A stretch of DNA of 64,000 nt from an uncultured Bacillota bacterium (GCA_946407495.1 CAMJOB010000001.1:9549-73548); one strand, 5' to 3'. Shown: positions 5,160 through 62,300, counted from the stretch's first letter. Program-made: numbers and translations. The notes: a model not told the origin generated them from the letters alone.

Positions 5160-5381
5160 ATGGAAGAAAAAATATATTTCATGCCAGGAGACATAGTAAG
5201 CTTGAAGTAGGATATTCCTAACAAGCCTACTATGCTTGTGGTTAAAAAGGAAACCTATATCTTTAAAAATCAAAAAGATAAATAGGATAATGGTTTAATG
5301 GGAATTCGTTGTAGATGGTTCGCAAATGATGGAACTCTACAAGAAGCAATTTTTAATACAAAAGATCTTATAAAACTATGA
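5160..5381 (+). CDS. DUF2158/YodC-like small protein (73 codons, two in-frame TAG at 5208 and 5283)
   Basis: MPGDIVSLK-x-DIPNKPTMLVV ... GIRCRWFANDGTLQEAIFNTKDLIKL matches YodC family pattern; ATG overlaps upstream stop, TGA overlaps next ATG. Confidence 0.55.
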
Positions 5382-7120
5382 TTAACTATTTTCAACAAGG
5401 AGGACAAGTTGCTGATGAAAAGCAACAAATGCAAGAAATGTTTATGCAGTATCTTGCAGAAAAATATCAAACAGAAGATATAAACGCATTAGTTTAGCAA
5501 TTATAGTCAGAACCAGGTGAAACAGGTGAAACTAAATTAGAAGATGAATTAATCTCATTTCAATAGATGTTACAACAAGGTGGACAAGCACCATTAATGG
5601 CAGAAAAAGGAGCAAAATTAGATTATATTAAATCACTTAAAGGATTTTGTCCAGACGGAACACAAGTTGAATATTATAAAAATGGTAAGAAAATTTGTGG
5701 TAAGTGTATTGCTAAACAAGAAAATGGTGCTAAAATGAACCAGAAGAAATTCTTTACTCCAGCTGATGTTCCATCTGCTTGTAAAGGAGGAAAAGCTAAG
5801 AAATCTTGCAATGGTGCTAAACTTACTAAGAAATGTAAAACAGGTGGAACCATAGAATTTTTTCAAAAAGGAGGAACTCCTAAACTTCAAACTATAACTG
5901 TTGATGGTAAACAATATGGTCGTTATAAAGCTGGACAGCAATGGAGAGAAGTAAATAATGGTAAATTAGGTTCTGCTAAATACGATATTCGTAATGGTAA
6001 AGCACAAATCTTATTAACTAAGGCTGCTAAAGAGCGTGAAGCAAATGAATCAACTGTAGTAAAAGCAAGTGGTGCAAATGCTAAAAACGCTAAATATGGT
6101 AAAACATATAGAGGTGGAGTTTATGCAAATGCTGCATCTCAAGCTGAAGCTGAGAAACGTGCTATTAACGATAAAGTACAATATTACGATTATAACGGTA
6201 AAGTTTATAAAACTAAGTGGAATGATACTCCAACTGCACAAGGTGTAATTGATAATAGAGTTGAAATGGCTGGTCTTTACGGAAACGACTTAGGTTGGCG
6301 TAATTCTGGACGTTATAATGCTAAATCTAGACAGCATCGTAATAATGAAAGAATTTCTGCAAACGGAATGTCTGATGCACAATTTAATGCACAAATTGAT
6401 GCACAAAGACAACAACAATTTGCTGATCAACATAACGCAGAACTTGCAGATAGAGATTTAGCAAAACGCGCAATTGCATCTGAACTTATGGATGCTTCTA
6501 CAGCAGGTTTAGCACGTGGATTTAATCCATTCGGATATACAAATGATATAGTTAATGGAAATTATGGTTCACTTGCAGGTAGAGGTGTTGAAGCAGGTCT
6601 TACTCTCGCTGGTGGATCACTTATGCCTAAGATTCCTGGTATGCACAGACTTGGAAGATATTCTGATGTATTAAGACTTAGTTTAAATAAAGGATTTGAC
6701 AAAGTTGATAATTTCTTATGGAATGGTGTTCCTCAAAAAATTGTAAGTTGGGGTGGACGTTATATGCCAAAGAATAATGGTGGCTTTGTTAGAACTTATT
6801 TTGCTGAACCTTCAATGAGAACAGGTTTAGAAAATGCTAATCCTGTTGATTTAACAGTTAATATTGGAGGTAAGATGGCTAAAGGTGCTGTTGAAGGTGC
6901 TAAAAATGCTGGTAGCAAGATTGGAACAAGTCTTTCTGAGTTTGGACAAGATGTTGGTGCATTAGGTAGACAAATTGGACAAGGAGTTAGTAACACTGGT
7001 GCTAAAGTTAAAAACGCTTGGGTTAATCATCCTGATGATGTTATGTTAGGTGCTGGAGTTATAGTTCCTTCAAGTACAGCAGTTGGAATAGCTGGATATA
7101 ACTATTTTAATAATAAATAA
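5378..7120 (+). CDS. hypothetical Gly/Lys-rich protein (580 aa) with three QQGG-type motifs and Cys pairs; 3 TAG in first 80 codons, none after
   Basis: frame 2 continuous from ATG 5378 through TAG 5537, 5546, 5603 into ORF 5567..7120. Confidence 0.5.
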
Positions 7121-7127
7121 TTGAATT

Positions 7128-7712: not shown

Positions 7713-7714
7713 TT

Positions 7715-10117
7715 ATGAGTGAAATTAAATATAATAAAGATGGAAGTATTGCTAAGAAAAGAGGACGTCCTAAAAAGTAGAAACCTGAAATTCCAATAGA
7801 ACTTCCACAAGAAGTACAAGATATAATTAAAAAGGCTACTGAAGAAGTTCCAAAAATTACTGAAGTTCAAGAAGATCCATTAGCTAAAGTAAAAGAAGCT
7901 GTAAGAGATTCTTTTAATGGATGGGATGTTCCTAAAGAAGAACGTATTACACGTTTTGATAAAAGACTTTCTTATGAACTTACTGGATATAAACCAATTA
8001 CTGCAACTAAAAGTTTAGACTTTAGACCAGAATGGTTTACAGAAGCCAGAGATACCTTTTTAAGAACAGGTAAATATTGTAGTTATCCATTTCGTTCTAA
8101 AGCATACGATGACTTTTGGCATGAAGAATATGTAAGATGTAGAGATGGATATACTGTAAATGGTTATACACTTACAGGACCAAACTATTATTATCTTAAC
8201 TATTATCAATTACCTAATATTGATGTAGAGAAAGCGGGTAGTGGACGTTTAGCTGTATTTCCAAAATTCTTAGTATTTCAATATGAGTTCTTTCATTATT
8301 TTGAAATATGTAGAATACTTAAAAAAGATGTATGTTTGATGAAAGCTCGTGGAGTAGGATTTAGTGAGATTAACGCTGCCATTTGTGCTTGTATTTATAA
8401 TTGCTTTAGAGAAAGTAACTGTATGATAACAGCACAACTTAAAAACTATCTTGATAAATCATTAGATAAAGCATGGAACGCTTTATCTTTTACAAACGAT
8501 AATACAAGTGGTGGTATGTTCAAACTTACACAAGTGCATAACACTCAATATTATAAAAAATCATCTTGGTACAAAAAAGAAAACGGACAAGATATTGAAA
8601 CAGGTTGGAAATCACAAATCGTAGGAATTGTAGCAGATACTGATGCTAAGATTCGTGGTGATCGTGTTGACTTACTTGTTTATGAAGAGGCTGGATCAAA
8701 TACAGCTTTACGAAAATCTTATATTAAGGGTAAAGCCTTAATATATATTGGTGGTAAAAAGTTCGGAATAAGAATGTGTGGTGGTACAGGAGGAGACCGC
8801 GGTATTGCACTTGCAGACCTTGCAGATATGTATAATGATCCTGAGTCTTTTGATGTATTACCATTTTATCACAATTATACACCGTCTGGAGATTGGATTG
8901 AAACTGCTTATTTCATTCCTTCTTATATTGGAGCTGTAACAGAATACGGAGAAGATGCTGATGGTGTTAAAAGAAGACTTCTTGATGAAAGAGGTTATTG
9001 TTTTTGGGAAAATTACAAAGAACAATTAGATTACGATAGATCCAAAATTAAAAATCCTAAAGCATTAATTGAACATTGCGCAGAGTATTGTTATACTGCT
9101 GATGAAGCCTTTGCACTTGAGGGTGAAAATAAATTTAATAAAGTTTTATTAACAGAACAATTAATGCGTATTCGTGTTTTAAAACAAGCACCTAAATTTG
9201 ATTATGGTGTACTTAAATTTAAATACGAGTCTGGAAAACAACATACAAGTGAAAACGTAAGAGGTGTAACTTGGCAATCTACCGCTAAAGGTCCAGGAAC
9301 AATCAAGATTCTTGAGCATCCTTTATGGGAATGTCAACCTAAGAAAGATGAATCTGGAATGATAATCTGGAATCCACCTGATAAACAAGCTAATTTATAT
9401 GTAGCTGGTTGTGACGGTATTGACTTAGGTAAACAAGATACATCTGAATATACAAAAGACCCTTCTGATTTTTGTCTTGTTATTTATAAAAGACAATTTG
9501 GATTAAGTGATCCACAGATTGTTGCTATTTATAAAGATAGACCACAAGACATAAGAGAAGCACATGAAACCGCAGTTAAATTAGCAATGTATTATAATTG
9601 TTTAATTAACATAGAGGCTTCACGTATATCGTTAGTCGGATATTGTAGAGACCGTGGATGGTTAAATTATTTAATGAAACGTCCAAGTATGTGTTTTTCT
9701 GATGTTACAAGAAAACATAGAGCAGGTTTACAATATGGTGTTCCTGCTACTGTAGCAAACATTGACCACCATACCGATTTAACAAGAGATTTCATAAATG
9801 ACTATTCACAAGGTATTTGGTTTGAAGAGTTCTTAGTAGAAGCTACCAAATATAGTGATGAAGAAAAACGTAAATTCGATATTATTGCTGCTACAGGTAT
9901 GGCACTTATGGGTAATGAAGAATTAGGTTCATTAGTTCCTAAAACAGTTGCACCTGTAGAAGTAAGACATCAAGATATTGGATATTATACAGATGATAGA
10001 GGAATTAAACGATTTGGTGTTATTCCAGATAAATACGCTGTTAAACTTAAAATAACACCTCCAACTAAAACATATGGATATGGAAGACAAACTAACCCAA
10101 GATATAGAGACTATTAA
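7715..10117 (+). CDS. terL: terminase large subunit (TerL); one TAG at codon 22 (7778-7780)
   Basis: Walker-A-like KARGVGFS, ATPase core DRVDLLVYEEAGS, C-terminal RNaseH-like nuclease region (YVAGCDGIDLG); frame 2 continuous from ATG 7715 into ORF 8336..10117. Confidence 0.85.
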
Positions 10118-10361
10118 ACAAGAAGTTATTGATATAGTTGAAGAATTATATGAATGTAAATTTATAGGTAAATTAAAAGTTACAGCATTAGATCCTGTTG
10201 GATATTCTGTAGCAATTGATTTATTATAGGGTGAAGATCCCATATTTATCACTGCAGAATTTCCTCATGATAAATTCTTAAAATTCTTATGTGAAGAATT
10301 AAGAATGAGAACTTTAGATAGAGTACAATTATTTGGTTTATATAAAGTATTTCCTAAATGA
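10074..10361 (+). CDS. small hypothetical protein (95 aa) overlapping TerL 3' end in another frame; one TAG (10227); TGA overlaps portal ATG
   Basis: frame 0 ORF from ATG 10074 through TAG to TGA 10359-10361; acidic helix-rich. Confidence 0.3.
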
Positions 10362-12553
10362 CTGCTGAAGACGAAAGATTAATAGAATTAACAAACAGAA
10401 CGATTTCTGATTTAGTATACGAAAAGACGGAACTTCAGAAAGCGTATAACATATATAATGGAAAACGCGACAAAGAGTAGTATAAGTATCTTGAAGATAA
10501 TTTCGGAATAGGTACACCTACCTCTGTCGAGTTTACTCCATTAGTAAGAAAGCACGTTGATGCTATGGTAGGTGAGTTTTTAGGAACTCCTATATTACCA
10601 AAAATTACGTGTAAAGATAAAGAAACAATAAGTAATATACAACGTGAAAAGCAACTTAAAATAAATGCTGAAATTGTAGATTATTTAAAGCATCATTTAC
10701 AAAATTAGATTTTAAGATTTATTACAGGAAAAGCAATGGATGATACTTCTGTTAAAAATAAACTTCAACAAATTGTAGAAGATTTAGATGAAGATTTTAT
10801 TTCTGAATATGAAGTTGCTGCTTAGAATGTAATACAATATATTTTACAAAGTAGAAGAACTGATTTATTAACTAAATTAAAGTTAATTTTACTTGATTTA
10901 TTTATATCAGGATATACTTTTTATAGAGCTAAACCTTCTACTGCAAAAACTAATGTTGAAGTAGAAGTTTTAGATCCAAGAAATACATTTATTGATAGAA
11001 ATCCAGAATCTCCTTATGTAAAAGATTCATATAGAGCTGTAGTTAGAAAATGGTTGAGTAGACCAGAAATATTAGCTCGTTATGGAAAAGATTTATCAAA
11101 AGAAGATGTTGATAAATTAAGAGAAGAATTTGAAGGATTAGATCAAGGTGGAAGTTTTTATAGAAGAAGTCTCGAAGGTGTTCCTTCTCCAATGTCAGAA
11201 GGAATACAAGCAAGATTTGAAGGAACAATAGGTCTTGATGCTGAAAGTAATGCAAATTATAGACTAATTCCTGTATATGAAGTAGAATGGATAGAAACCG
11301 ATGAAAATTTTGTAATGCAGAGATATGAAACAATTCGTATTGGAGATAACCAATCAGAAGATAGTTTCTTTATCTTAAAAGGAAAGAATGAAAATGTAGT
11401 TCGTTCTAAAGATGATCCTGCATTTTGTACATTATCAATAAATGGTTTATACTTTTTAAATAGAAACGATGAACCTTATTCTTTAGTTTTAGCTTGCGCG
11501 CATCTTCAAGACAAATATGATATACTTCACTTTTTCAGAGATAATCTTATTGCAAATAGTGGCACTGTTGGTGATTGGATCGATGTCTCGCTTATTCCAA
11601 CATATTTAGGACCAGAACCAACAGAAAGACTGCTTAAATGGATCAGTTACAAAAAATCAGGAATAGGATTAATTGATACAGCTCAAGAAGGTAGAATTGC
11701 TTCAGGACAAGCTCCACTTAATCAAACTTTTAGTGGCTTTGATGATACTATTAAAGCTCAAGCAATTCAATCTATACAATTAGCAATAGAAGATGTTGAA
11801 AATAACTGCTCTTCTATTACAGGTGTATTTAGAGAAAGACTTCAAGGTATAGAACAACGTGATGCTGTTACTAATATTAAACAAGGTGTTCAAAACTCGT
11901 TTATTGTAACTAAGCAATGGTTCCATCAAATGGATACTATTACTGCAGAATTATTAATTGATTCTTTAAATGTTGCTAAAGTTGTTTATAAAAAAGGACT
12001 TACAGGAACAATTATTCTTGGTGATAAAAGACAGAAAATATTTACTGCTTTACCAGAATATTTCACAGTAACTGATTATGATATAAGTGTTGTTACAAGT
12101 TCTGAATTAATTCAAGACTTGGAACAAATAAAAGCAGTAGTTCCAGAATTTATTAAATCTGGACAATTACCTGCTGATATATTATTTGAAATTATAACTT
12201 GTAAGAGTCCATCTGATATTAAAATAAAAATCAGAAAAGCCTTAAAGAAACAAAAAGAAGAAAATAATACAATTCAGCAATTACAACAACAATTACAAGA
12301 AGCTCAACAACAATTACAACAATTACAAAATGAAAATTCTCAGCTTAAATCTAAGGTTGAAGCACTTAATGAAAAGAGACTTCAATTAGATGCTCAGAAA
12401 ATTCAACTTGATAATAAAGTTAATATGTTTAAAGCTCAAACTGATAGAGATTACAAAACAATTGAAGCACAAGTTGATCAAGATAAAGTTAAGATAGAAC
12501 AGGCTCAATTATACGATAATAATCCATATAATGATAAAATTAGAATGTCATGA
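10358..12553 (+). CDS. portal protein (call by size, position after TerL and C-terminal coiled coil); 3 TAG codons
   Basis: frame 2 continuous from ATG 10358 through TAG 10475, 10706, 10823 into ORF 11054..12553; 731 aa. Confidence 0.55.
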
Positions 12554-15500
12554 ATAAAAAGTTATCAAGTTTCGAAAGTATATCTACCTCAGAAATAAAT
12601 GATAGTTCAGTTTATGTATCTGCTGTTTAGAAATTAAAAGATGGTAGTTATAAAAATATTAATATTCCTATTTCTCAACTTTCTGGTTTATGGAATAACG
12701 ATGTTCAACTGGCTATTGCTAATGCAGATTTTGAGGGAGGTGCAATTGATGCTGAAGTAATTCATCAGGCTGCTTTATAGGCAGTAGATGCTGCATTAAC
12801 AGAAGCAAGACAGGCTGTTAATGCAGCTATCGCTGCTGCAAATGATTTTGCAGGAGATGTTGCTACAGGTAATACAGCAACATAGAAAGCAATTGCTGAT
12901 GCTCAACAGCAATTAAATCAAGCTATTCAAGATGGACAATCTGTAGTAGCTTAGATGCAAACTATGTATGCACAATATTTTGGAGATAATGGTGAAGTGC
13001 GTCAAGCATTAAACGAAGCAAATAGAGATTTAAATACATCTAGAGCACTTTTAACTTCAGCACAAGAAGATTTACAAGCATTAGCAAATGGTGAAATTAC
13101 TCCAGAAAGTTTACATGAAATCGAAAGAACTGTAAACGGAATTAAAGAAATGTGGGGAATTGAAGGTACTTATGTTAATTCAGAAGGTACTGTTGCAAAT
13201 AAAGTGTTAGAATATGTAGACATGGCATTAGCACAAAAGAATTTAAAAATGACTAACATTAATGGTGAAACTAATAATGTTACATCATTTGAACAACTTG
13301 TTGATGCTGCTAATGGAATGTACACAACTACATTAAATAGAATGAATACTGCTGAACAAAAAGTTACTCAAATGCAAGAAGAGTGGGATGTAACAAAAGG
13401 TGAAATGTCAGAATATGTAAAAACTTCTGACTTTAGCGATCCTACTAAAGCATCACTTAAATCAGCAGTAAAATCAATGACTGATAGTTTAATTAAACAA
13501 ACAGTTAGAGATACAACTTTAGATGTAATCACAACAATAACTATTCCTATTAACTCACCTCAAGGTTATACAGTGAGAGTTCCAAATATTGAAAAAGAAA
13601 CTTTCTATTATATGTCTTGGGATGATGCAGAAGGTGATAATGCAATTCCTTTAAATTATCAATTTAAAGTAGTTGCAAGTGGTAATGCTGTCCCATCTGC
13701 AGATAATAATAGTTGGAGTCCTTTAACTTTAGATGGAGTTAATTCTCCTACTGTTGTAGCCTATGACAATGAAAATGTTATTCCAGATACTAATGATAGA
13801 TATTTATTCATTCAGTATAATGGATTAGGACCAGCAACTAAACAAATTGATGTAAAAGTATGTATTGAAAAATACTTATCACAAACACAAATATAGCAAA
13901 CAGCTAATGCTATTGTTTTATCTGCAATTAATAGTTTAAAAGAAGGAGGACAATTAGCATCTAGTTTAACTCTTACAGACGACCAAATTAGTACAGCTGT
14001 AAGAAGATATTTTAATAGTATTAATTTCAATGCAACTAGCATAAAACAAACTGCCGATCTTATTCAACAAACAGTATTAAGTTTCTTAGACGAAGGAAAC
14101 AACAATTATAGAACATTACAATCTGTAATTAAATCTGCTAAAGATTCTATTGAACAATCTGTTGAAGATTATACTTTAACTTTATTAGAAGAATTTAAAA
14201 ATAGTGCTCCTAATACTGACCATAAAATAAATACTGATTATAGTATTGATAATAGTGGTTCAAGTATCACATTTAAAAATAGAAGAAGAATTATTTCAAA
14301 TCTTGAACAAGGACATACATATTTTATAAAATGCGTTGCTTTATCAAAAATTTATTATAAGTACGGAACTTATAATTTTGCAAATGTAAACGTAGATGTT
14401 GCTTTCCTTGAAAATGAAAATAACGGATGGACTAAAGTTGTAACTCCAGATTCTATTAAAGTAGATGTTCCTAGTGATGCATCTTGGAGTACAATTACAT
14501 TCTTCATAGAATGTGCAAAGAATAATGCTAATCCACCTCAGTATTTAGCAAATAATGATTTTTCTGTTCAAGTATTTGAAACTGCAACATCAAAAGCTGC
14601 TAATTTCAAAATTACTCCTGAAATGATTAAAGAAACCATTAGTGGTGATACAGGAGCTGATGGAATTATCCATTAGATTTATCAAAGACTTGCTCGTCCA
14701 AGTGGAACTTCAACAACATGGGGAGAAGTAGGTGGTGGATTCTTAAATCAAGCACAAGTTGATGAGAGTGCAGAAGAAATATGTAGAACATTAATGGGAA
14801 TGAGTACAGGAGATGCTTCTACTGATCCTATTGTTAGATCAAGTGAGTTAAAACAATCTTTAGATGAAATAAAATCAGATGTAAGTAAAATTCAGTATTT
14901 AGCTCTTAAAAACGAAGGAGATGATGCTCTTTCATCTGAATATTTCGGAATAAGTAATAAATCTGGATTTAATTATTTAAATGGTATATCACAATATTAG
15001 AAAGGTCCAGAATTTGATATAACTCCAAATGCAGATGCTTTTGGATATTTTAAAATAAAGGTTCCTTATCCAAATACAGACTATACTCTTCTTTTAGTTG
15101 ATTTAGATAAATATAATTTTGGAGAAGTTCACTTTGTAAATGCTGAAACTCTTAATAGCATTACAGAAAATAACTTCAAACAAGATAAATCACATACATC
15201 TTGTGTTTATACACCTGATACTAATTATCCAACTAAAAATAAATTAAATCCATTACATTTTGAAAGTGTAACAACAGGATATTTATCATTTAAAATAATT
15301 AGAGCTGCTGGCAATAACAATACTTTAAATGCTACTTATTTTTAGAACAATCCTGTTCATGTAAAATTAGGTATTCCTACAGATGTTGCTGTTAGTAACA
15401 TTAAACAAACAGCGGATTCTATAACAGAACAAGTAAGTAGTTTAGAAGAAACATGGGGTCCAAATGGAGAAAAAGCTCAATCATTAAATACAGCTTTATA

Positions 15501-18054
15501 GAGTATTACACCAAATGCTATAGAGTCTGTAGTAGCAGAAGAGATTGATGGTAAATTAACTGGTTACTCTACAATAGAACAAACTAAAGATTTTATTGCT
15601 TCTACTGTTGGTGCAGCTGGTGCAGTAACTAATAAATTCCATGATCCTTTATTTAAACATGATTATAGTTATTGGCATAGAAGATATAGTAATTATCCAA
15701 ATTATTCTAATATTGCAAATATAGTTAGTCCAGCTGCTAACGTATATAATAAATATTATGATAATAACAATAATTATTATCAAATAAACTCTTCAAATAT
15801 ATTAGAAAAAGATCTTAAATCATTTATAATATATGATAATAATACTTTAAATATTAACGGTTTAAGTGCTGAAGATAGAAGACATATTTATGGATTATAT
15901 ACAAATTTAAAAGTAATATCTGGTAATAAGTATACAGCATCATTTTATATTAAATTACCTGCAGTTTTTAGTTCAGGATATACATCACTTATCGATGTTC
16001 CTAATTCAAATAACAAATTTAGATGTTCTTTCCAAAATCTTATGTTAAATGTAGGATTTGTAGATGAATTAGCAAAATTAACTCCTAATTTTTATATTAC
16101 TCTTCTTTCTACAGAAAATTCTCTTGAAGATATAGAAAATACAGAATATACTATTGTTGATGGAGAAGAAGTTGAAAATTGGAGTTCAGAAACTCTTTAT
16201 AATACTCAACATAAAAAAGCATATAAGTTTAATAATCAAGGAAATTTAACAGGAAATGGATTTAATAATGGATCAGTTGATCTTGATCAATTTGGATTAT
16301 GGATTAAATTCGGATAGGGTAATTTATTAAATTATTTAAATAAAGCATTTACTATAAGTCTTGGAGATGTTGATAATTCTGGTATAAATATAGAATAGAA
16401 TATAAGATATAGATGGTTTAAAATATGGTTTACATTTACTGCTGATAATAAGCATATTGTTAAAAATTCCGATACTTCATTAACAAATATTGTGGATGAT
16501 CGTGATAGAGCATTTTGTTTTGAACCTTGGACTAATATTTATTCAAATAAATATTCAAGAATATTCTGTGAATTTGCTGCTCCTATGTTAAATTCTGGAA
16601 CTACACCTTTAAAGTTTAGTTCTCAAGAAAAATCTGATGAAGTTTATAGTGTAATTAGTCAAACTAAAAATGCAATTGATTTATCTATAAATAATGTTAG
16701 ACAAGGATTAGAAAAAGTAGGAATAACAATAGATGCTGAACATCCAGAAAAAAGTAAAATAAAACTTAATGCAGATGTATTAGAAGCTGATTTAGCTGAA
16801 GCTACATTTACAGGAAATATTAAAGCAAAAAGTTTTGAAGTACAACCAGAAGGTAGTGATAGTTCTATTTCATTAGTTATTTATAATCCAGACGATACTA
16901 GTTTTGTTCATAAATATATAACTGATCACAATACAACTTTAAAAATAAGTGCGGGAACTCCTGTTTTAGTTTCAACTGTAGGTGAGGATGTATATTTAAT
17001 AAACTTAACTAAGATTAATAAAAATGGAGACATTACATATTATTTTAAAATACGAACAGATATTCCTATTACAATAAAAAATATAGGATATTCTGAAGAA
17101 TCTGGAAGTACTATATCTACATTTAAAATTAAACCAGTAAAATACTTTTTAGATAATGTTTATAATATATATTTAGAGAAATATGTAGCAGAATCAATTG
17201 TAGATACTTAGAATAACACAATAACACTTGGTAATGTTACTTCAAATTCTTTCTATAATAGTCTTAATTGTAGTGGTTTTACTTTTAAGTATTCTACAAA
17301 TGAAGGTGATAAGTCATTAACTTTTGACGGTAATGATAAACCATATATAAAATCTACAGGAGTTTTAAAATACAAATCTATAAATTTAAAACAAGTTGCA
17401 CAAAACATTAGAGATATTAATTATTTTTCTATTAATAGTCCTGTATTTTCATTAGATTATTCAAGGGGCGGCGATATTTATGATATGCCAATATACAGAC
17501 ATAATTTTAGTCAACCAGGTAATTCTGCTTATGATTCAGCTGGAAATCTTCATGTTACAAATGAAGGTTCATTAAGAATGTTTAAAGTATATAAAAACAT
17601 AAATAGTTCAGGAACATTAATTGATTTAACTCACTTTGAAAATAATAAGCGTTCTGATGATAAATATTGTTATGCTATAGAATCTAAAGATCGAACAACA
17701 GGAGAGATTTTCTATCAAATCTTAGGATTTTATAATATTACAACTTATTTTGGAGATCTTACAAATAATAATCGTTATTATGGTGATATTTATGATGTTG
17801 AACAAGGTGATGGTTCAAAATGTTTTTCAATAGCAGAAAATATAATTAATAATTGTTTTGTAATAGGATGTTTTATTAGTAAAAATCTTAATGAAAATAC
17901 ATTAACTGATAATAATAATAGCTATAGAGTATTTTTCAATGAAGATGAATGTACTAGACTTAATGACAGATTATCACGTGGTTATGCAGGAGCAATAGGA
18001 AAAGCTAATAATTCTTGGAATAGTAAAAAAATTATAGTAGATAAGTACAATTAA
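12550..18054 (+). CDS. giant virion-associated protein (1834 aa) read through 12 TAG codons; function unknown (head/tail fibre or decoration-like)
   Basis: single frame (frame 1) with no TAA/TGA for 5.5 kb; joins ORF fragments 12955, 14794, 16042, 16492, 17485; ATG overlaps portal TGA (ATGA). Confidence 0.55.
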
Positions 18055-53022: not shown

Positions 53023-56000
53023 ATGGCTCAAGTAAAGAAATTTTAGCAAGGTGGTTCCGTTAATTCTAACCTTTTTGACATAGGAGGTAGAAATGTAAAT
53101 AAAAATGATTTTATTTACTTAGCTAAAAAGAATTGGAACACCTTCAAATCAAATTATAATATCTCAGGCGATGATGCTGTTGATGCTGATAATGCTTTTA
53201 ATAAAGTATTACAAAGTATCGAAAGAGGAGATATTAGTTCAATGGGTGAAAATGGAGAATTATTCGATAAGACAGGTACATTATCAAATAATTCAGACCA
53301 GAAAAACTCTTACGGTAAAGCAGCTCAATATTTATGGGAACTTGGCGTAGGAATGGACACCTATCAAGAAGATAATAAAAAGAAAGGACTTAAATACGAA
53401 GATACAAGAGGAGCTTTAGGTAATATCATTAATAATAGTTTTTATGGTGGTAATTATACAGGCTCTGACCAAGATATTAAACTTTGGCTAAATCAAGATG
53501 CTGTTGATGCTAACGGAGTTCGTTCTAGAGTTAATAGAATGAATGCTTTAGCTAATTATTTAGAAAAATTAAAAGCAGATGTAAATACACAAGATATTGA
53601 TTATGAAGGAAGTAAATATAAAGATAAAAATGAAAGACTTTCTCATATTGATAATGCTATATCTCTTCTTAAAAAAGGAGAATATAACGATAATGTATTA
53701 CGTGCTTTAATGGATGTTGGTGATATGACAAGTACTCAAGCAATGTCATGGTTAGCTGATGGTACAGAACAATCAACTCAACAAAATCCAGAAGAACCTG
53801 CTCAACTTTCTGATGATGACAAAATAAAAGTACTTGCTAAACAATTAATGCAAGAAAGACCTGGTGTTTCATTAGAAGATGCTACTTCTTTAGCAACAGC
53901 TAAATTCAATCGTGATAAACAACAATCTCAAGCTCAAATCAGAAAAGAAATTCAAGACATCAACTTTAATAATTGGTTTGATGAAGTTTCTAAAGATTTC
54001 CAAGCAACTAATTTTAGTTTACACGATCCAAAATATAGTTTAAACTATTATAAAAATACTGATGCACCAAATTTCGGAATACACGATACTATCATTGATA
54101 AGTATGAACAATTAATGTCAGGTAAGAATAGATCTTTTATTGACTATTATAAAGTGGCAAATTCAGGTGTTAAACATAGACTTAGAGCATTACTTGATAT
54201 AGAATCTGAACGTGCCGAAAGAGATGGTTTTACAAAAAATCTTAGAAAACTTGGAAACGGTTTATATGCTTTAAGAGGATATACTCGTTATAATAACGGA
54301 TATGCTTGGGTATATAATAGTAGAACAGGTGATTTAAATAAAATACAAACTAAATCAAATCCATATTTGTTTGAAGAAAACGAAAAATGGTGGACTACTA
54401 ATAATGCTAAATATAAGCAAGGTGGTATTCTTTTTGCTCAACAAGGTGCAAGTATTAGAGAAATTCTCGCAGAAGAAACAAAAAATGCTAGACAAGCAAG
54501 ACAAGATAAAATTAAAACTGCATCAAAAGCTCAAAATAGACCAGAAGAAGCAGTAAAGAATGGTTCTAAGAAAGCGAATAGTTTAGGTGAAGCATATGAT
54601 AATATGAACACTGCAAATAAAGTTAGATTCTATTCTGCTGTTGGTGATTTAACAGGTGCTGTTGCTTCTTTTGTACCAGGTTACGGAAATGCAATTTCTT
54701 TAGGTCAAGGTATTATATCTGATGTTGCAAGAGCAGGTGCTGATATTTCAGAAGGATATTCAGCAGGTGATGTAGCTTGGAATTTTGCTAAAGGTTTAGG
54801 AATGACTGCTATTGGAGCTATTCCATTAGTAGGTACAGGAACTAAATTATCAAAAGCATGGAAAGCAACAAGAGCATTTGTTCCTTGGGCACTTAGTATT
54901 GGTGCAACAATGGGTGATGTAAGTGCTGCAGAACAAGCATATAAAAATATAGAATCTGGTAAAGGTACAGTTGATGATTATATGGCTATGGTTAAATTGC
55001 TAACAAGTGTTTCTAATACAACAAAACTTGGAAGTAGTACACTTAAAGCAAGAGCTATTAAAAATGCCACAAAAACTAATAATACTGAAATTACTATTAA
55101 AGGTAAAAAAGGTAACATTAAATTAAATCAACAGCAATTAGACAAATTAAAAACAGCTAAGACTCAAGATGAAATGAACCAAATGATTAAATCAATGGGA
55201 CATAATGATGAAATAGCATTTAGTCGTAATGTATTTGGTGAAAATCTTAAGCCTACAGATGCTGGTCGATTTGGAAAATCAGCTAGAGTAACTAAATCTC
55301 CAGTATATGATTTTAGTTTAGTTGCTAATAATTCAATATATAGAAAAGGTCCTGTTTCAGAAGTCGGAATGATGCAAATGAATGTAAATCGTCCATCTTG
55401 GTTACATTTACCATCAATTGGTTATAAACCTACTACTGTTACAAAATCTGCAACACCTGTTGTAGCACCTAGTGTAACACCTACAAGAGTTGCAGCTTTA
55501 CCTAATTCTCCATTACGTTCTAATACTCCATCACCAATTCCTCCAGCAACACGAATGATAGGAAGAAATAATAAACTAACAATTGGTGGATATAAAAAAG
55601 GAGGACGTATAGAACGTCTAATTGAAAAATATCAAGCAGGTGGTAAAACAGTAAAACAATATGGTTTACCAACAGATGATATTTGGAACGCTGTAATATA
55701 TGATTTAGATAATCGTTATCGTAATAACTTTACAAATGATACTGATTTTGATTATGTAAATCGTAATATTGATGTTACAGATAAAGTAAGTCCTAAAAAC
55801 AATCTTTATGATGTAGAAGGAAATAAACCTTATACAGATCCTAAACAATTAGAACTTTATCATAATCAAGGTAAATTAGTTGAAGATAGAAATAAAAACT
55901 TTTATAAACAATTATTAACAAACCCTGTTCTTGCTGAAAAGTGGGCACGTGATTATTTAAAATATAATCATTCTACTACTCATGGTAAAGAATGGTTTGA

Positions 56001-57423
56001 AAAGAATAACATTATTAAAGACGGCATTTTTAATTTTGGTAATTTTGTAAATGCTAAATATAATGGAAATCGTTTATGGGAAGACCATTTAAATGCAACA
56101 GGACATGATGTTTATAAAGGTAAAGTTTATTATATTGAAGGACAAGATGGTTATTATGGAGATAAATTACCAGAAGGATATAGGATTGATCCTACTGATC
56201 AAGGTATTGATGTTGAAAATGGATTAATAAGAAAGTATAAACTTATTAAAGATCCAACTCAACCACAACCTAATCCACAACCTACTCCACAACCTCAAAA
56301 CAAACAGTCAGTAATAACTCCTCCTACTAAGGAAGAAGTTCAACCTACTACAACAAATCCTTCAGTAGTTCAACCTAAATCTAATTTTGATCCAACTCGT
56401 TTAGGTGCTGATGCACTTGCATTAAGAACAGCACTTGATACTATTAGAACTAATAATTTATTAGCTGATAGAGCTTTAGGAAAACAACTTCCTTTAAAAA
56501 ATCCTAATAGTATGGTTGCTCCAACTGCTGATGTTTATAATATCTTAGCAAATGGACAACAAAACGCTGGACAAATTAATACACAAGGTCGTCAAGCACA
56601 AAATAGTGTTGCTAATACAGAAACAGGTCTTTTAGCAAGACTTCATGCTGCAAGAGATGCTACTAAAGTAAAACAAGAAGCAGGTCTAAAAGCAGATGAA
56701 AAACGTCAAGCATATGCTGATAAGGCTGTTGAAGTTGGAAATTACAATCACGCTCAAGAAGTTGAAACAGGTAATTTTAACAACGGTCAACTTGTTAATA
56801 AAAAGAATATGGACATAGATATTCTTAACGGACGTGATGCAGCTAATTTACAAGTTCGTTCTGCATTAAGTGATAAATATGAATTAGATTTAAGACAAAA
56901 ACTCGCTAAGGCTGAGGCTAAACGAGATATGGAAGAGCAAAAAGCTGAGTTAAAGAAAGAACAAATTGCTGATATGCAAGAACAATGGAATCAAAGACAA
57001 GTTCAATTGTTAACAAATTATCATATGAATGTTGATCCAGCTTATGTAAAAGCACGTAGAGGTTATGAAGAAGCTGTTAAAAATAAAGACACAGCAAATG
57101 CTTCTAAATATAAAGCGGATATGGATGTTATTGCAAATAAGTATAAAGTAGATGCTTATAATCAAATGGGACGATATAGTGCTAATAGATATGGAGTAAA
57201 TTGGAATGATTTACAAATATCTAAAAATCCTTATTCATATTCAATGCCTACTAAGAAAGCAAAAGGTGGAACAATTTATGATAATATATTCAAGGCTCGA
57301 CTTGATGACAATAGAAGATTTGATAAAAGAATTTCAGAATCTATAAAAACTACTTAGAAAGCAATTGGAGATAGCAGTGCTATCACAAAAGCTATTCTTA
57401 ACAAGTTAATGAGTAAGTGGTAA
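53023..57423 (+). CDS. giant virion/cargo-like protein (1466 aa) with N-terminal KFQQGG motif (Q encoded by TAG at codon 8)
   Basis: ATG 53023 frame 1 continuous through TAG 53044 into ORF 53242..57357, through TAG 57355 to TAA 57421-57423. Confidence 0.5.
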
Positions 57424-57424
57424 T

Positions 57425-59332
57425 ATGATAAAATTTTTACAATCTGGAGGTGGTTTACCACCTTTTCAATATTATAGACCAGTAACGGTCACAACTCCTA
57501 GTGGATCAGTAGCACAACCTCAAAGTGCTACTGCATCTACAAAGGAAACAAAATCTGATGCGTTAACTGATAAAGATGTTCTTAAAGCATTAGATAAAAT
57601 AGATGGACTTCCTTCAGATATGTCCGTTCTTAAATCAGGTTTAGTATCTGCATTAGGTACAGATTCTGGTTTTAGTATATTCGGTTCATCTGATAGTCTT
57701 TTTGGTAGTATCAATCAAATTGCAACTCAATATGCTGATACTTTATTAGGAATTAAAATTGCTAATTTTAGTAAAAAGAAATATGATGATATTAAAAAGA
57801 CACTTGACCAAAATGGCGGATTGAATGAAATTGCCGTTACAGATTCTGGAGGAGTATTAGTAACAGATAGGGACGGAGAAATATCTCAAATTTCTATAGA
57901 TACTTATTTATAGAATAAACACAGATACAAGGCTCTTACTAATTCAAATATTCTTTATATGAGAGCCTATAATCCAGACTATGCTAACAATGATGCTTTA
58001 ATGGATATAGCATCAAATGGTATTGGTCTTACTGAAATTAATAAACAAATTAAAGGAGCACTTGGAAGTCTTGGTCACGATGATAATACAAGAGAATCTT
58101 ATACTGTTATAAAAGGTGTAGAAGCACTTAAAGAAATATATAATAAAACAGGTGAAATAAAACCTGAAGGATTATATAAAATTAAAAATGCTACATCTAC
58201 TCAAAGAGATCAAGCACAAGCAGCTATCAATTATATATGGAATATGTTACCTGAAAACTCTAAAGCAGTTCTTAAATTGAAGTCAGGTAGTGAACAAGAT
58301 GCTAAACTTCTTGTTGCTAATTTTGTTGCTTCTGGAACTACAAGCAAACAAGATTATGGAGAAAGCTATATTCTTGATGCTGAGGGTAACAAACCAGGTG
58401 CTAAGAAAGAAGGCGAAGGTGGTGAGAAAAATGAATACAAACCAGGAGTTGTTTCTAATTTCATTAGAGGTAACGGTAAGCCTTCATCTTTTGTAATAAT
58501 GAATGGAACTACAGATGGTTTAGTTGTTCAAGGTATAACTTCATCATTAACAAATAATTCTGGTAAAATATTAGGAGCTTCAAGTTTAGCTACTATTAAT
58601 AAAGGTGGATATAATGGAGTTCTTGATTGGAATAATGTTAGTATGGGTGGAGTACCTATATCAGAAGCACATTTATCTGAATTAATGTGTACTGATGGAC
58701 GTATAACTTCTATTGATTTTCCTATTGATATAGCGGAAAAACAAAAAGGAAATATTGTTCCTAATTATGAAATGTTTGCATTAAAAGAAAAAGCTGATAG
58801 AGAAATAAAGGCTGCAAACTTAGAAGAAAAACAAGATTATGATTCAATTAATGCTATATATGCTAAATACAATCTTCCTACTAAATATGATGCAAGTGGT
58901 AATTTAATTACAACTCATTGGGCAAGATTTGGAGTTATGCAAGGTGTTGCATTAAGTAAAGCATTTGATGATGATCAATCATTTAATGATTTATTAAAAG
59001 AAGTTTCAGATAATGAATTAGAAAGTTACTTAAAGTTATTCAATAATGAAGCACACATTAGCGGTTCACAACAAGAATTAAAAGGAAAAGATATTGAATT
59101 TGATAAATCAAGTTGGTGGGATAAAATGTGGGGTAACGGACAACATTGGTGGTCTACACATGATCAAATGTTTAAAGGTACTATATTTATTCCAATTGTT
59201 GTTGATGAATTTGCTGCTATGGCGGGTGATGATAGTCATACCAAAATAGATGAAAATGAAAGAATAGCTGGTTTACAACAAGATCACGATTTACAAGAAA
59301 CAACTTAGTTACAAGGTCGTCTTGATGAATAA
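57425..59332 (+). CDS. virion/cargo-like protein (635 aa) with N-terminal KFLQSGGG motif; 2 TAG
   Basis: frame 2 through ORFs 57425 and 57959, TAG 57911 and 59306, TAA 59330-59332. Confidence 0.45.
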
Positions 59333-62300
59333 TGGAAAAGAATTATGATTTAATTTTAAATATGACTGCTAATCCTGGACTGTCTTTAGGTAATCTAAAG
59401 ACAGTTGGATTAACAGCTGATAATACTGCTTTAGAAAGTGAAGACAAGTATTTAAATTCATAGAAAATTCAGAATATGAGCATTTTTAAAGATGATGAAG
59501 GAAACTTTAGTAAAAGTAAATTTCATGATTTTTATAAAGTAGCTCAATCAACATATAATATAATGGCTAGTGACGCATATACAGATGACGTCGCTAAGAA
59601 AAGTCGTACCTATCACAGAGATAATATTTTTGCACCTCTTGAACAAAGAAGAAAAGGTCCAGAAATAAATTGGGTAAAACAAAGTAATCCATTTAAATCT
59701 ACACAAAGTATTGTTCGTTTAGGTAAGGTAGAAGATGGAAAATATACATGGGATGAACTTGCACAAAGAGAAAAAGTTCTTGCAAATCCTAGAGAGGCAA
59801 CAAGACCTGATGGAACTATTGATGAATCTAAAGCTATTTGGCAAGATGCACCAAATGATTCTTGGTTTAGTAATTTCTGGGAAACTCGTGTAGCTGCACA
59901 ATGGGATGAAGACGGTGAACATTTAAATCCTGTTACAGGTGAAAAAGAAACACATAAAAAAGGAGATTTAAAACTTAATTCTTCTGGTAATTTCTATTAT
60001 GAAAATCTTGATGGACGTGATGTTTACGGACGTAGAGTTCTTAATAAAATGAACACTTTAACTACTGATGGATCTGAATTTAATAAATATGATTTCTTTG
60101 ATTCTGATGGTAAAGATAAAAGTGTTGGAGGAACTATACTTAAAAATGCAGCCTTAGTTGGTTCTATGTTTATTCCTTATATTGGACCTGTTGTAACAGG
60201 ATTAGGATTAGCATCACAAACTGCTGGTTTACTTGGAACATTAGGTAAAATGGGAGCAAATTTTGCTAATGATAATCTTGGTACTAACATAAACAATTCT
60301 ATATTTTCTGAAATGGAAGGATTTAGTAAATCTGTAGGCAGAAATGCAGTTTCAGAATATTCTCAGCAAAATATGTGGTCTGCTGAAAATTTAATTGGTT
60401 TAATAGGTGATGTAATGGCTCAATTTAAAGAGCAACGTTTCTTATTTGAAAAAGCACCAATTATTTTTAATAATAAATATGGAATTGTAAATAATGGTAA
60501 TTATCAAAGTAAATTAGCTGAATTAGAAAGTCAAATTGCTAAATTTGATAAAACAAGAATTGATGATTTAGTAAAATCAGGAAAAACTATTACTGATATT
60601 CAAAGAGCCGCTAAAGAACTTGCATTAGTAAGACAAGAAAGAGCGGTTACTGAACTTGATTCTTATATTAAAGGATACAATAAGATAGGAGAAATCTTAT
60701 CTAAAACATATATGACAGGTCTTGTTGTAGGTGATACCTATGGTGAGGCTAAATTACAAGGAGCATCTGATAATGAAGCATTATGGCTTACACTTGGATA
60801 TGCTTCAGCCGAAGCCGCATTACTTAATACAGGTGTTGGTGAATGGCTATTTCCAGAACTTCGTTATAATAAACTACATCAAAAAGCTATTGGTGAAGCA
60901 TTAGTTAAAGCTAAAAACGAAACAGCAAAACTCGGTGAAAGTTTAACAAGTTCTGCAATAAAGAAAGGTGAAAAAGAGGCAAAGAAAGATTATGTTAAAA
61001 GACTTTTTAATCTTGGTAAAAAAACTGCTGAAGATTTATATACAGCTAATAAATCAACTGGAGACAAGACTATAAAAGCAGCATTTGCTAATGCTCTTGG
61101 TGAAGGTACTGAAGAAGTAACAGAAGAATTTTTAGCAGATTTCTCTAAATCTTGTTTTAATGCAATAGGATGGTTAAGAGGAGATAATACTCGTTTAGAA
61201 GCATTTGACAATTTTAATTGGCAAGATCTTCTTAGTAGATACTCTATGAACTTCTTAGGAGGTTTTATTGGAGGTGGAGCCGCTGGATTTAGTTTAGATA
61301 ATATGCGTAATATGAAAAAGCTTGACCATATGGAATTCGATCAAGCTATTCAAGAACTTGCATATATTGTTCGTAATGGACAAACTAAGGAGTTCCTAAA
61401 GACTGTTGATGAAATGACTTTAGGCGATAGACGTAAATCTGCAACTCAATTTACTAAAGAAGGTGATAATTATGTTTGGGCACAAGGTACTGATGAAGAT
61501 AACCAAGATCTTGCAGCTAAAAATGCAATTCGTGCACAAATACAATTATTTGAAGATATACTTTCAAGCGAAGGTATTAAAATGAGTGATGATTCATTCT
61601 TATCAAAAAATGTTGATTTACTACCAGATATTAAATTTGGTCTATTAAAACAATCTTCTACAGCAGGTCGTTTCCTACAACAATTTAACTCTTTAAGTAC
61701 AAAATTAATTGAAGCAAATGCTTCATTACTTGCAGCTAAAGGTAAATTGACTGAAAATTCAGAGAATAAAGAAACAGGAAACGCACAAGTTGATATTGCT
61801 GATAATCAAAAACAATTATTACAACAACAAATAGCTCAAATAGAGCAACAATTACAAACTGCATCAACTGAAGAGCAAGTTGCTTTAAAAGAAAGTCTTA
61901 AAAATCTTAAATCTCAATTAGGTAATCAACAAAACGGAGCAAGCGAAGTTCAAAGATTAGAAAGACAATTAAAAGATTTAAGACAACAAAAAGAAGACTT
62001 AATTTCTGGAAAACGTGCTAATGAATTTTTACAAGATTCATTATATGAAATGACTGATGCTATTAATAATAACTTTATTAAACCATCATTTATTCGTTAC
62101 GCAGAATATAAAACTAAAAAGAAGTTTAACGAAATTCCAGAAAATCTTTTAGGTAAACTTCAACAAGAATGGAAAGCATGGGGAGAAATGGACAGAGCAG
62201 AACAAGTACACCAATCTGCTGAGATATTCAAAAATGTACTTGTTAATTCAATGCCTATTTTAACTCAAAATGTTGCAAAATATGAAGAGTTACTTCAATC

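What the first reader, a model, noticed from the sequence alone, without database searches (positions are those of the whole stretch)
5160..59500. TAG codons are concentrated in the first few dozen codons of late genes (possible translational gate)
First in-frame TAG positions are: codon 3 (39926 gene), 5 (43507 and 35029), 7 (20458), 8 (53023), 11 (holin 30397), 12 (51483), 15 (39351), 17 (5160), 21 (HTH 28166), 22 (TerL), 24 (18169), 27 (12550), 30 (48779), 40 (portal), 44 (59332). Several long genes have only one TAG, and it is at the 5' end: TerL (800 codons) and 39926-43507 (1193 codons, TAG at codon 3). The 5378 gene has three TAGs in its first 80 codons and none in the next 500. This placement is what would be expected if TAG read-through by the suppressor tRNA licenses translation initiation and elongation of late genes, rather than being a neutral codon choice.
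Basis: partly seen in the sequence, partly recalled or inferred. Interest (0 to 1): 0.7.

Follow-up and report, generated by a model that had tools for sequence, protein, structure and literature searches.

The report
Recoded TAG codons crowd gene starts
In this gut phage, which reads the stop codon TAG as glutamine, the few TAG codons sit four to five times more often in the first 50 codons of genes than further in, and this skew fades in related phages that use TAG more heavily, which suggests that TAG is tolerated where failed read-through costs least rather than placed as a designed switch.

Summary
With TAG read as sense, the window is one + strand late-gene block of a crAss-like phage: terminase, portal, major head protein, a holin-like protein and an endolysin. 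A tRNA-CUA lies just upstream.

My 42-44 gene models hold 66-67 in-frame TAGs in about 20,000 codons. Twenty-three of them lie in codons 2-50. In-gene shuffles predict 9.0-9.5, and shuffles among Gln codons predict 11.2-11.7; none of 2,000-5,000 shuffles reached 23.

Homologues show that 20 of the 23 early TAGs lie in conserved coding sequence. Most align with Gln or TAG, including in a standard-code relative, so start-codon artefacts are excluded.

The "gate" reading is only partly supported:
- The decline is graded and continues past codon 50.
- Early TAGs are Poisson-distributed among genes.
- 18 of 42 genes, including the major head protein and the endolysin, have no TAG.
- TAG sites turn over about as fast as CAG sites.

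Across about 50 dereplicated relatives the 5' skew falls as TAG use rises. Observed/expected is about 2.0-2.3 at 1.1% TAG or less, and about 1.2 (1.06-1.10 against Gln codons) above 1.1%. It is absent in phAss-1.

Best reading: position-dependent selection against an imperfectly suppressed codon. I found no earlier report of this positional pattern in the papers I read.

The parts
1199..1271 (+). suppressor tRNA, anticodon CUA (reads TAG)
   Evidence: ARAGORN. The syntenic slot holds tRNA-CUA in L005 and tRNA-UCA in the TGA-recoded relative L007. Decoding as Gln is inferred from alignments: opposite window TAGs, the standard-code relative has Q 15 times, with the next residue at 5.
5160..5381 (+). 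small gene, 73 codons; TAG at codon 17 (5208-5210) and codon 42 (5283-5285)
   Evidence: Codon 17 is TAG in all TAG-using relatives and Q in L007 and MT835470.
5378..7120 (+). 580-codon gene with an N-terminal FQQGG motif; TAG at codons 40, 43 and 63 (5495-5497, 5504-5506, 5564-5566), none afterwards
   Evidence: The N-terminus is conserved in L004/L005 and MT835470.
7715..10117 (+). terminase large subunit, 800 codons; single TAG at codon 22 (7778-7780)
   Evidence: phrog_6681, E = 1e-72. There is no alternative start for 185 codons. The RGRPKK motif upstream of the TAG is conserved. The homologous codon is Q in L004/L005 and K or V in others.
10358..12553 (+). portal protein, 731 codons; TAG at codons 41 (10478-10480), 117 and 156
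   Evidence: tblastn matches annotated crAss-like portal proteins. Codon 41 is TAG in the L001-type relatives and Q in L004/5/7 and MT835470. A TAG at about codon 40 recurs in the portals of most TAG-recoded lineages examined.
12550..18054 (+). 1834-codon structural gene with 12 TAGs; the first four are at codons 27, 77, 112 and 135
   Evidence: Codon 27 aligns with Q in L004/L005.
18169..18975 (+). 268-codon gene; TAG at codons 24 and 29 (18238-18240, 18253-18255)
   Evidence: The N-terminus is conserved from M1 in L005.
20458..22503 (+). 681-codon gene; TAG at codon 7 (20476-20478) and codon 157
   Evidence: The start was not validated by a homologue; there is an alternative ATG at codon 13.
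28166..28429 (+).
   Evidence: The N-terminus is conserved in L012; the homologous residue there is N.
30397..30810 (+). holin-like membrane protein; TAG at codon 11 (30427-30429) and codon 59
   Evidence: phrog_199 holin, E = 1e-7. The codon-11 TAG is conserved in the 76-kb relative.
30807..31223 (+). endolysin, TAG-free
   Evidence: phrog_894, E = 2e-36.
32680..34098 (+). major head protein, TAG-free
   Evidence: phrog_11589, E = 8e-16. It has the highest share of C/G-ending codons of any gene.
35029..36339 (+). 436-codon gene; TAG at codon 5 (35041-35043) and codon 435
   Evidence: MTAR#IFEA aligns with MTAR#MFEA in L012 and MTARQVYEG in MT835470. Codon 435 aligns with Q.
39351..39929 (+). 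192-codon gene; TAG at codons 15, 35, 109 and 138
   Evidence: Codons 35 and 109 are conserved as TAG in the relative; codon 35 is Q in MT835470.
39926..43507 (+). 1193-codon structural gene; single TAG at codon 3 (39932-39934)
   Evidence: MN#AQNTF is conserved in L012, L016, L098 and L099. Standard-code homologues begin MKQEATNTF or MSKQETVNTF.
43507..48777 (+). 1756-codon gene; TAG at codon 5 (43519-43521), then at 193, 270, 685 and 1192
   Evidence: M(N/S)YK#ILNEPLNF is conserved in L012 and L098. The next ATG is 343 codons downstream.
48779..51466 (+). 895-codon gene with 8 TAGs, the first at codon 32 (48872-48874)
   Evidence: The relative has its TAG one codon later, within the same QQ pair.
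51483..51935 (+). 150-codon gene; TAG at codon 12 (51516-51518)
   Evidence: The relative has Q at this site.
53023..57423 (+). gene of about 1466 codons; TAG at codon 8 (53044-53046), inside the N-terminal KKF#QGG motif, and one TAG near the 3' end
   Evidence: MAQVKKF#QGGS is identical in the relative. The paralogous motif KKFQQGG in 52644 uses CAG CAA.
59332..64000 (+). giant ORF running off the window (more than 1550 codons); single TAG at codon 44 (59461-59463)
   Evidence: The N-terminus aligns from residue 1 with the MT835470 homologue.

Best explanation
What the region is. The window is the late (packaging, head, tail and lysis) module of a crAss-like gut phage, consistent with the large 'Zeta' group. 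The phage decodes TAG as glutamine with its own tRNA-CUA but uses TAG sparingly: about 0.33% of codons and about 8% of Gln codons.

Proposed mechanism. TAGs crowd the 5' ends because read-through is probably incomplete, with the suppressor tRNA competing with host release factor 1. Each TAG then carries a cost that grows with its distance from the start codon, through wasted synthesis and truncated structural proteins. Selection removes TAGs from gene bodies and from the most expressed genes, but leaves them near neutral in the first few dozen codons. The result is a graded 5'-to-3' decline, not a dedicated gate. Any gating effect of an early TAG is then a cheap by-product.

Shown:
- the skew itself;
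- that the early TAGs are real Gln codons;
- the graded shape of the decline;
- the inverse relation with TAG usage across relatives.

Inferred:
- incomplete suppression;
- the selective cause.
For: 1. The skew is significant against in-gene and Gln-synonymous shuffles. It holds in long genes alone.

2. The decline is graded. Density is 1.1-1.2% in codons 2-50, 0.4% in 51-200 and 0.12-0.20% beyond. Past codon 50 in long genes, 14 TAGs lie in 51-200 against 6.1 expected, z 3.7. In sparse recoders the last 50 codons are depleted: 7 vs 15.0 and 33 vs 46.5.

3. TAG makes up 23-26% of Gln codons in the first 50 codons but 3-5% after codon 200. Dense recoders show mostly about 20-70% in the larger position bins. 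So the 5' ends here move toward, but do not exceed, the level seen where TAG appears freely used.

4. Dose-response across dereplicated relatives with homology-validated starts. Observed/expected in the first 50 codons:
- 2.27 (uniform) and 1.74 (Gln-synonymous) at 0.15-0.6% TAG;
- 2.00 and 1.73 at 0.6-1.1% (12 loci; 17 of 20 informative gene families have observed above expected);
- 1.23 and 1.10 at 1.1-1.7% (families 18 vs 16);
- 1.23 and 1.06 at 1.7-5% (families 15 vs 19).
phAss-1, an unrelated code-15 phage, shows 9 observed against 9.3 expected.

5. Early TAGs are Poisson-distributed among genes. TAG sites are retained like CAG sites.

6. The major head protein and other genes with the most C/G-ending codons (possibly the most expressed; expression was not measured) have no TAG.

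7. The +4 base after TAG is enriched for A and depleted for T. From my memory of E. coli work, this context favours suppression.

8. The theory is established. Selection against nonsense errors is weakest at the 5' end and scales with expression (PMC13271495).
Against: - No measurement of read-through efficiency exists for this phage or its relatives.
- Five of the six testable TAGs at codon 12 or earlier are retained in the nearest relative, against about 21% for later TAGs. That could mean positive maintenance, that is, a gate.
- Only two genomes represent the sparsest class.
- The clade-wide trend shares ancestral sites (portal codon ~40, 5160 codon 17), so its z-scores are inflated.
- A few relatives have mis-started portal genes.
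- Expression levels are inferred, not measured.
Confidence: 0.5

Rival explanations
1. Adaptive translational gate. TAGs are positively selected at the extreme 5' ends of late genes. Before the suppressor tRNA accumulates, ribosomes abort after a few codons. In tightly packed, overlapping genes this could also block downstream translation by loss of coupling, or through Rho-type polarity.
For: - The tRNA-CUA lies immediately upstream of the late block.
- The holin-like gene has a TAG at codon 11.
- The three largest structural genes and 35029 have TAGs at codons 3-8. These are conserved as TAG in the 76-kb relative, and overall 5 of 6 TAGs at codon 12 or earlier are retained.
- TerL, 39926 and 59332 each carry a single TAG, which is early.
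- Many gene junctions overlap by 1-8 nt, which would allow coupling.
- Borges et al. propose recoding as a late or lysis regulator.
Against: - 18 of 42 genes, including the major head protein and the endolysin, lack TAG.
- Early TAGs are distributed among genes as a Poisson process.
- The gradient continues to codon 200.
- The TerL and portal 'gates' are not conserved in the nearest relative.
- The excess of 5' TAGs per locus over the Gln-synonymous expectation falls from about 3.3 to about 0.8 as TAG density rises, rather than staying constant (derived).
- The +4 context favours read-through.
- Against a neutral expectation of about 0.5, retention of 5 of 6 is not significant.
Confidence: 0.3
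2. By-product of N-terminal sequence properties. N-terminal segments may be more variable, Gln-rich or compositionally different (for example AT-rich to avoid mRNA structure), so new TAGs arise or survive there irrespective of decoding efficiency.
For: - The TerL N-terminus is a K/E/Q-rich linker, and TerL contributes much of the excess in relatives.
- An N-terminal FQQGG motif puts Gln near several starts.
- GC at first codon positions is low in codons 2-10.
Against: - The Gln-synonymous shuffle still rejects: 23 observed vs 11.2-11.7 expected.
- N-terminal bins are not less conserved than the rest.
- Window TAG sites face Q in the standard-code relative more often than CAA/CAG sites do (28% vs 17%).
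- GC3 is higher, not lower, at 5' ends, and the CAG share shows no clear 5' excess.
- The excess survives removal of the three top-contributing families: ratio 1.51, z 3.7.
- Dense recoders with the same proteins show no skew.
Confidence: 0.1
3. Artefact or chance. The 5' TAGs lie upstream of the true starts, because ORFs were over-extended when TAG stopped counting as a stop. Alternatively, the pattern is a lineage-specific accident carried by descent.
For: - Three of the 23 early TAGs (20458 codon 7; 29908 codons 35 and 41) have no homologue support.
- Some very early TAGs are followed by an in-frame ATG within 5-11 codons (39926, 35029, 20458).
- The window and the 76-kb contig share about 14 TAG sites by descent.
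Against: - 20 of 23 early TAGs sit inside conserved N-terminal protein sequence, including against a standard-code genome.
- The control caller error is 8 in 253 genes.
- TerL, 43507 and 53023 have no alternative start nearby.
- The independent 0.6-1.1% lineages show the same skew in 17 of 20 gene families.
Confidence: 0.05

Closest known systems
Stop-codon recoding (genetic code 15, TAG to Gln) in late genes of crAss-like and other gut phages (Ivanova 2014; Yutin 2021, PMC7886860; Borges 2021/2022; Peters 2022, PMC9523058)
   Same: - A phage-encoded tRNA-CUA.
- In-frame TAG in terminase, portal, tail and lysis genes that aligns with Gln in homologues.
- Related lineages switch between TAG recoding, TGA recoding and the standard code, as Yutin et al. 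describe for the Zeta group.
   Different: Those papers treat which genes carry recoded stops. None of the texts I searched analyses where in a gene the recoded stops lie. Here TAG is sparse and strongly 5'-skewed, and the skew depends on how far recoding has gone.
Position-dependent selection against nonsense errors, and 5' codon-usage gradients (Gilchrist and co-workers, PMC13271495)
   Same: Error-prone codons are predicted to be commonest near the start and rarest in highly expressed genes. Both patterns are seen for TAG here.
   Different: The known effect concerns ordinary sense codons with tiny drop-off rates and weak gradients. Here the 'error' would be release-factor termination at a reassigned stop codon, and the gradient is four- to five-fold.
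Incipient code change in crAss-like phages (Yutin 2021: suppressor tRNA acquired, TAG 'starting to accumulate' in TerL of OFRY01000050)
   Same: A sparse-recoding state with one suppressor tRNA and few TAGs in conserved genes such as TerL.
   Different: No positional statement is made there. I could not retrieve that genome to test it.
Context-dependent stop or sense decoding in ciliates such as Condylostoma (Swart 2016; Heaphy 2016; recalled from memory, not checked here)
   Same: Reassigned stop codons show a positional distribution along ORFs that is tied to how termination is distinguished from sense reading.
   Different: There the depletion is just upstream of true stops and depends on mRNA 3'-end proximity. 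Here the effect is anchored at the 5' end, no 3' enrichment is seen, and TAA and TGA remain the only stops.

Membership tests
Code-15 (TAG to Gln) recoded phage | In-frame TAG inside conserved, otherwise intact genes | tested here: met
   There are 66-67 in-frame TAGs. ORF coding rises from 14.3k to 19.8k aa. TerL and portal are interrupted only by TAG.
Code-15 (TAG to Gln) recoded phage | TAG aligns with glutamine in homologues | tested here: met
   Opposite window TAGs, the standard-code relative has Q 15 times, with the next residue at 5. In the close relative the partners are TAG 9, CAA 8 and CAG 2 of 32.
Code-15 (TAG to Gln) recoded phage | Suppressor tRNA with anticodon CUA encoded by the phage | tested here: met
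   tRNA at 1199-1271. Its amino-acid identity was not determined.
Code-15 (TAG to Gln) recoded phage | Early or replication genes avoid in-frame TAG and use the standard code | not testable with these tools
   The window holds almost only the late block. The few upstream ORFs are uninformative.
crAss-like phages, Zeta group | Portal, TerL and major head protein homologous to crAss-like phages | tested here: met
   The portal matches annotated crAss-like portal proteins at 21-28% identity. TerL and major head protein have PHROG hits.
crAss-like phages, Zeta group | [quoted passage not shown] | tested here: inconclusive
   Relatives' contigs are 128-190 kb. There is an intein-like insert in 2259 and insertions in the relatives' TerL and major head protein genes. 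The size of the window's own genome is unknown.
Suppressor-tRNA translational gate on late or lysis genes (Borges model) | Lysis and late genes carry recoded stops | tested here: met
   The holin-like gene, TerL, portal and large structural genes carry TAG.
Suppressor-tRNA translational gate on late or lysis genes (Borges model) | Gated genes consistently carry, and conserve, at least one recoded stop | tested here: not met
   - 18 of 42 genes are TAG-free, including the major head protein and the endolysin.
- Early TAG counts per gene are Poisson.
- The TerL TAG is absent from the relative.
- Site retention equals that of CAG.
Suppressor-tRNA translational gate on late or lysis genes (Borges model) | The tRNA is expressed before, and is required for, late protein synthesis | not testable with these tools
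   Needs infection time-course data.
Nonsense-error cost gradient | Frequency of the error-prone codon falls with distance from the start | tested here: met
Nonsense-error cost gradient | Codon avoided in highly expressed genes | tested here: inconclusive
   The major head protein and other genes with strongly biased codon usage lack TAG. Expression was not measured.
Nonsense-error cost gradient | TAG is read through at less than 100% efficiency | not testable with these tools
   This is inferred only from the dose-response with TAG density.

The most novel reading that the evidence does not exclude
The 5' skew is the genomic footprint of the ambiguous-decoding stage of a stop-codon reassignment. 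When a phage has just acquired a suppressor tRNA and TAG is read partly as stop, TAG can first settle only at gene starts. As suppression becomes efficient it spreads evenly. If so, the skew would be a sequence-only read-out of suppression efficiency and of how far a lineage has travelled along the code change. The conserved TAGs at codons 3-11 of the holin-like gene and the largest structural genes could additionally be true cheap gates.
Probability: 0.4. Interest if true: 0.75.

Novelty: new variant of a known kind. Interest (0 to 1): 0.6.

Why it matters
Stop-codon recoding in gut phages is well documented, but how it evolves and whether it regulates anything remain open. A positional signature that weakens as recoding deepens gives both questions a handle from sequence alone.

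- It predicts lower read-through efficiency in sparse recoders.
- It separates 'tolerated where cheap' from 'placed as a switch'.
- It shows that gene callers and annotators should expect recoded stops within the first few codons of otherwise ordinary genes. Examples here are TAG at codon 3 of a 1193-codon gene and at codon 5 of a 1756-codon gene. The first of these would be silently truncated, and the second badly fragmented, under code 11.

Tried and rejected
- 3' enrichment (a U-shaped distribution). Several TAGs lie near gene ends, but there is no excess, and they align with Q rather than with ancestral stops.
- AT-rich 5' ends as the driver. Rejected: GC3 is higher at 5' ends, and the CAG share shows no clear 5' excess.
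- Faster-evolving N-termini. Rejected.
- My first impression that 'rare codons in general' ramp at 5' ends. I dropped this argument because C/G-ending codons are most frequent in the major head protein and may be the preferred codons.
- An early conclusion that the skew does not generalise. It rested on nine dense recoders plus phAss-1. I revised it after the portal-based scan supplied intermediate-density lineages.
- MT835470.1 turned out to be standard-code, with 0 in-frame TAGs in 46 of 48 called genes (the 7 TAGs sit in two short terminal ORFs). It was useful only as an outgroup.
- L005 looked TGA-recoded from crude ORF totals. It is not; those are 3' read-through artefacts.
- The metagenome scan returned only fragments of the same 76-kb lineage.
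- OFRY01000050, the 'incipient recoding' genome, is not retrievable.
- A tRNA scan of relatives' loci, meant to compare suppressor copy number, was uninformative because the loci do not reach the tRNA region.
- PHROG searches left most structural genes unnamed.

Full report
**What the window is.**
- The sequence is 29% G+C. It carries one tRNA, with anticodon CUA, at 1199-1271.
- Counting TAG as sense raises ORF coding from 14.3k to 19.8k aa, almost all on the + strand. The result is a tightly packed series of 42-44 genes.
- Named genes: terminase large subunit (7715-10117), endolysin (30807-31223), major head protein (32680-34098), an exonuclease with an intein-like insert (2259-4172), a holin-like protein (30397-30810), and a portal (10358-12553) that matches annotated crAss-like portal proteins at 21-28% identity.
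- Relatives sit on 128-190 kb viral contigs and carry intron- or intein-like insertions.
- Within the clade some lineages use the standard code (MT835470.1), some read TGA as sense with a tRNA-UCA in the same genomic slot (L007), and some read TAG as sense. This matches the description of the Zeta group of crAss-like phages (PMC7886860).

**Checking the observation.**
Three small corrections apply: 28166 is codon 20; 48779 is codon 32; and the true portal is 10358, with first TAG at codon 41.
- 'First TAG position' is a biased statistic, so I tested all TAGs. My gene set has 66-67 in-frame TAGs in about 20,000 codons.
- Twenty-three TAGs lie in codons 2-50. Shuffling within genes predicts 9.0-9.5. 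Shuffling only among the Gln codons TAG/CAA/CAG predicts 11.2-11.7. None of 2,000-5,000 shuffles reached 23.
- Density falls from 1.1-1.2% (codons 2-50) to 0.4% (51-200) and 0.12-0.20% beyond. In genes of 400 codons or more it runs 1.44%, 0.55%, 0.12% and 0.20%.
- TAG is the most 5'-enriched of all codons, at 4.6-fold.
- There is no excess near 3' ends.

**Is it a start-codon artefact?** When TAG no longer counts as a stop, ORFs can be over-extended upstream, which would fake exactly this pattern. Three results exclude that.
- Twenty of the 23 early TAGs lie inside N-terminal protein sequence conserved in relatives. These include the standard-code genome MT835470.1, where gene starts are unambiguous. 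Examples: MTAR#IFEA vs MTARQVYEG; MN#AQNTF vs MKQEATNTF; and 5160 codon 17, portal codon 41 and 39351 codon 35 all facing Q.
- TerL, 43507 and 53023 have no alternative start nearby.
- The same gene caller applied to 17 standard-code loci produced 8 false early TAGs in 253 genes, against 23 in 42 genes here.
- Opposite window TAGs the standard-code relative has Q 15 times, with the next residue at 5. TAG therefore encodes Gln.

**Alternative causes tested and not supported.**
- N-terminal regions are not less conserved than the rest.
- TAG sites face a conserved Q more often than CAA/CAG sites do: 28% vs 17%.
- 5' ends are not more AT-rich at third codon positions, and the CAG share shows no clear 5' excess.
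- The Gln-synonymous null already controls for Gln-rich N-terminal motifs.

**Gate or tolerance?** Several features argue against a designed gate.
- Eighteen of 42 genes have no TAG, among them the major head protein and the endolysin.
- The number of early TAGs per gene is Poisson: 24, 13 and 5 genes have 0, 1 and 2, with mean 0.55 and variance 0.50.
- The decline does not stop after 'a few dozen codons'. In long genes, TAGs beyond codon 50 are still concentrated in 51-200: 14 observed vs 6.1 expected, z 3.7.
- Between the window and its nearest relative (a 76-kb contig, 70-90% protein identity), TAG sites are kept as TAG in 9 of 32 cases and CAG sites as CAG in 12 of 46.
- The TerL codon-22 and portal codon-41 TAGs are ordinary Gln codons in that relative.
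- The base after TAG is A in 35 of 66 cases, against 31% after CAA/CAG (p = 8e-4). From my memory of E. coli work, that context favours suppression.

In favour of a gate:
- Five of six testable TAGs at codon 12 or earlier are conserved as TAG. The five are 39926 codon 3, 35029 codon 5, 43507 codon 5, 53023 codon 8 and holin-like codon 11. From my manual tally of the alignments, later TAGs are retained in about 21% of cases.
- Given incomplete synonymous saturation between the two genomes, this is suggestive but not significant.

**Relatives give a dose-response.**
- Nine densely recoded crAss-like relatives (1.2-2.2% TAG), the L001 group (about 2%) and the unrelated code-15 phage phAss-1 (1.5% in its late region) show little or no skew.
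- A portal-based scan added lineages of intermediate density.
- I restricted the analysis to genes whose N-termini align within six residues with a homologue of under 85% identity from another locus. I then dereplicated loci. Results for the first 50 codons:

| TAG density | Loci | Obs/exp, uniform | Obs/exp, Gln-synonymous | z |
|---|---|---|---|---|
| 0.15-0.6% (window lineage) | 4 | 2.27 | 1.74 | 6.0 / 5.0 |
| 0.6-1.1% | 12 | 2.00 | 1.73 | 7.9 / 7.3 |
| 1.1-1.7% | 22 | 1.23 | 1.10 | 3.5 / 2.2 |
| 1.7-5% | 13 | 1.23 | 1.06 | 3.2 / 1.4 |

- The last 50 codons are depleted in the sparse classes: 7 vs 15.0 and 33 vs 46.5.
- By gene family, 17 of 20 informative families show an excess in the 0.6-1.1% class, against 18 vs 16 and 15 vs 19 in the denser classes. 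The excess survives removal of the three largest contributors: ratio 1.51, z 3.7.
- Caveats: shared ancestral TAG sites inflate the z-scores; a few portals in relatives are mis-started; and the sparsest class is only two genomes.

**Interpretation.**
- The best-supported reading is position-dependent purifying selection against a codon that is read through imperfectly. Failure at an early TAG wastes little. Failure deep in a long structural gene wastes much and may yield harmful fragments.
- This is the logic established for nonsense errors at ordinary codons (PMC13271495), here in an extreme form.
- It explains the graded decline, the random spread among genes, the absence of TAG from the major head protein, the 3' depletion, and the fading of the skew where TAG supplies roughly a fifth to two-thirds of Gln codons in the larger position bins.
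The data do not require it, and 'licensing initiation' has no support.

**Novelty.** Stop-codon recoding of late genes in crAss-like phages, and the idea that it regulates late or lysis genes, are known. In the papers I searched and read I found no analysis of where within genes the recoded stops lie. I rate this a new variant of a known kind, of moderate-to-good interest.

Noticed in passing
window 5378-5410, 51483-51530, 52644-52700, 53023-53060, 57425-57455: Several otherwise unrelated late proteins begin with an F-Q-Q-G-G-like motif: MINYFQQGGQ, KKFQQGGE, MAQVKKF#QGGS and MIKFLQSGGG, plus the weaker match KA#RGAV. The standard-code relative MT835470.1 has the motif too (MATKFQQGGQ, ARFMQQGGAAP). 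It may be a shared packaging or processing signal.
   Followed up: no
window 2259-4172 (residues ~209-526): The exonuclease gene carries an insert of about 318 aa that is absent from all relatives. The insert matches intein-bearing terminase PHROGs and ends in ...THN, so it is probably an intein.
   Followed up: partly
L004, L005, L010 (TerL) and L012 8529-10879 (major head protein): Relatives have an insertion of about 1.1 kb splitting TerL and insertions of about 0.9 kb in the major head protein gene. These are probably self-splicing introns or inteins, as reported for Zeta crAss-like phages.
   Followed up: no
window 1199-1271; L005 2298-2370; L007 2648-2721: The same genomic slot, upstream of the exonuclease gene, holds a tRNA-CUA in TAG-recoding genomes and a tRNA-UCA in a TGA-recoding relative.
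   Followed up: partly
window 48869-48877 vs the 76-kb relative (merged L012+L016, ~25650): Within a conserved Gln-Gln pair the TAG sits on the first codon in the window (F#QF) and on the second in the relative (LQ#F). The TAG was kept locally but not at the same codon.
   Followed up: no
window 25598-27970: The 790-aa TAG-free protein contains an internal duplication: residues 1-258 resemble residues 272-530. The relative has only one copy.
   Followed up: no
window, all in-frame TAGs: The nucleotide after TAG is A in 35 of 66 cases and T in 5, against 31% A and 20% T after CAA/CAG (chi-square p = 8e-4). This suggests a context preference for read-through.
   Followed up: partly
window 5564-5569 and 12952-12957: In two genes a TAG is immediately followed by an in-frame ATG (5378 codons 63/64; 12550 codons 135/136). 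Under the standard code a new ORF would therefore start right after the TAG, and in 5378 that ORF begins MLQQGG, repeating the N-terminal motif.
   Followed up: no
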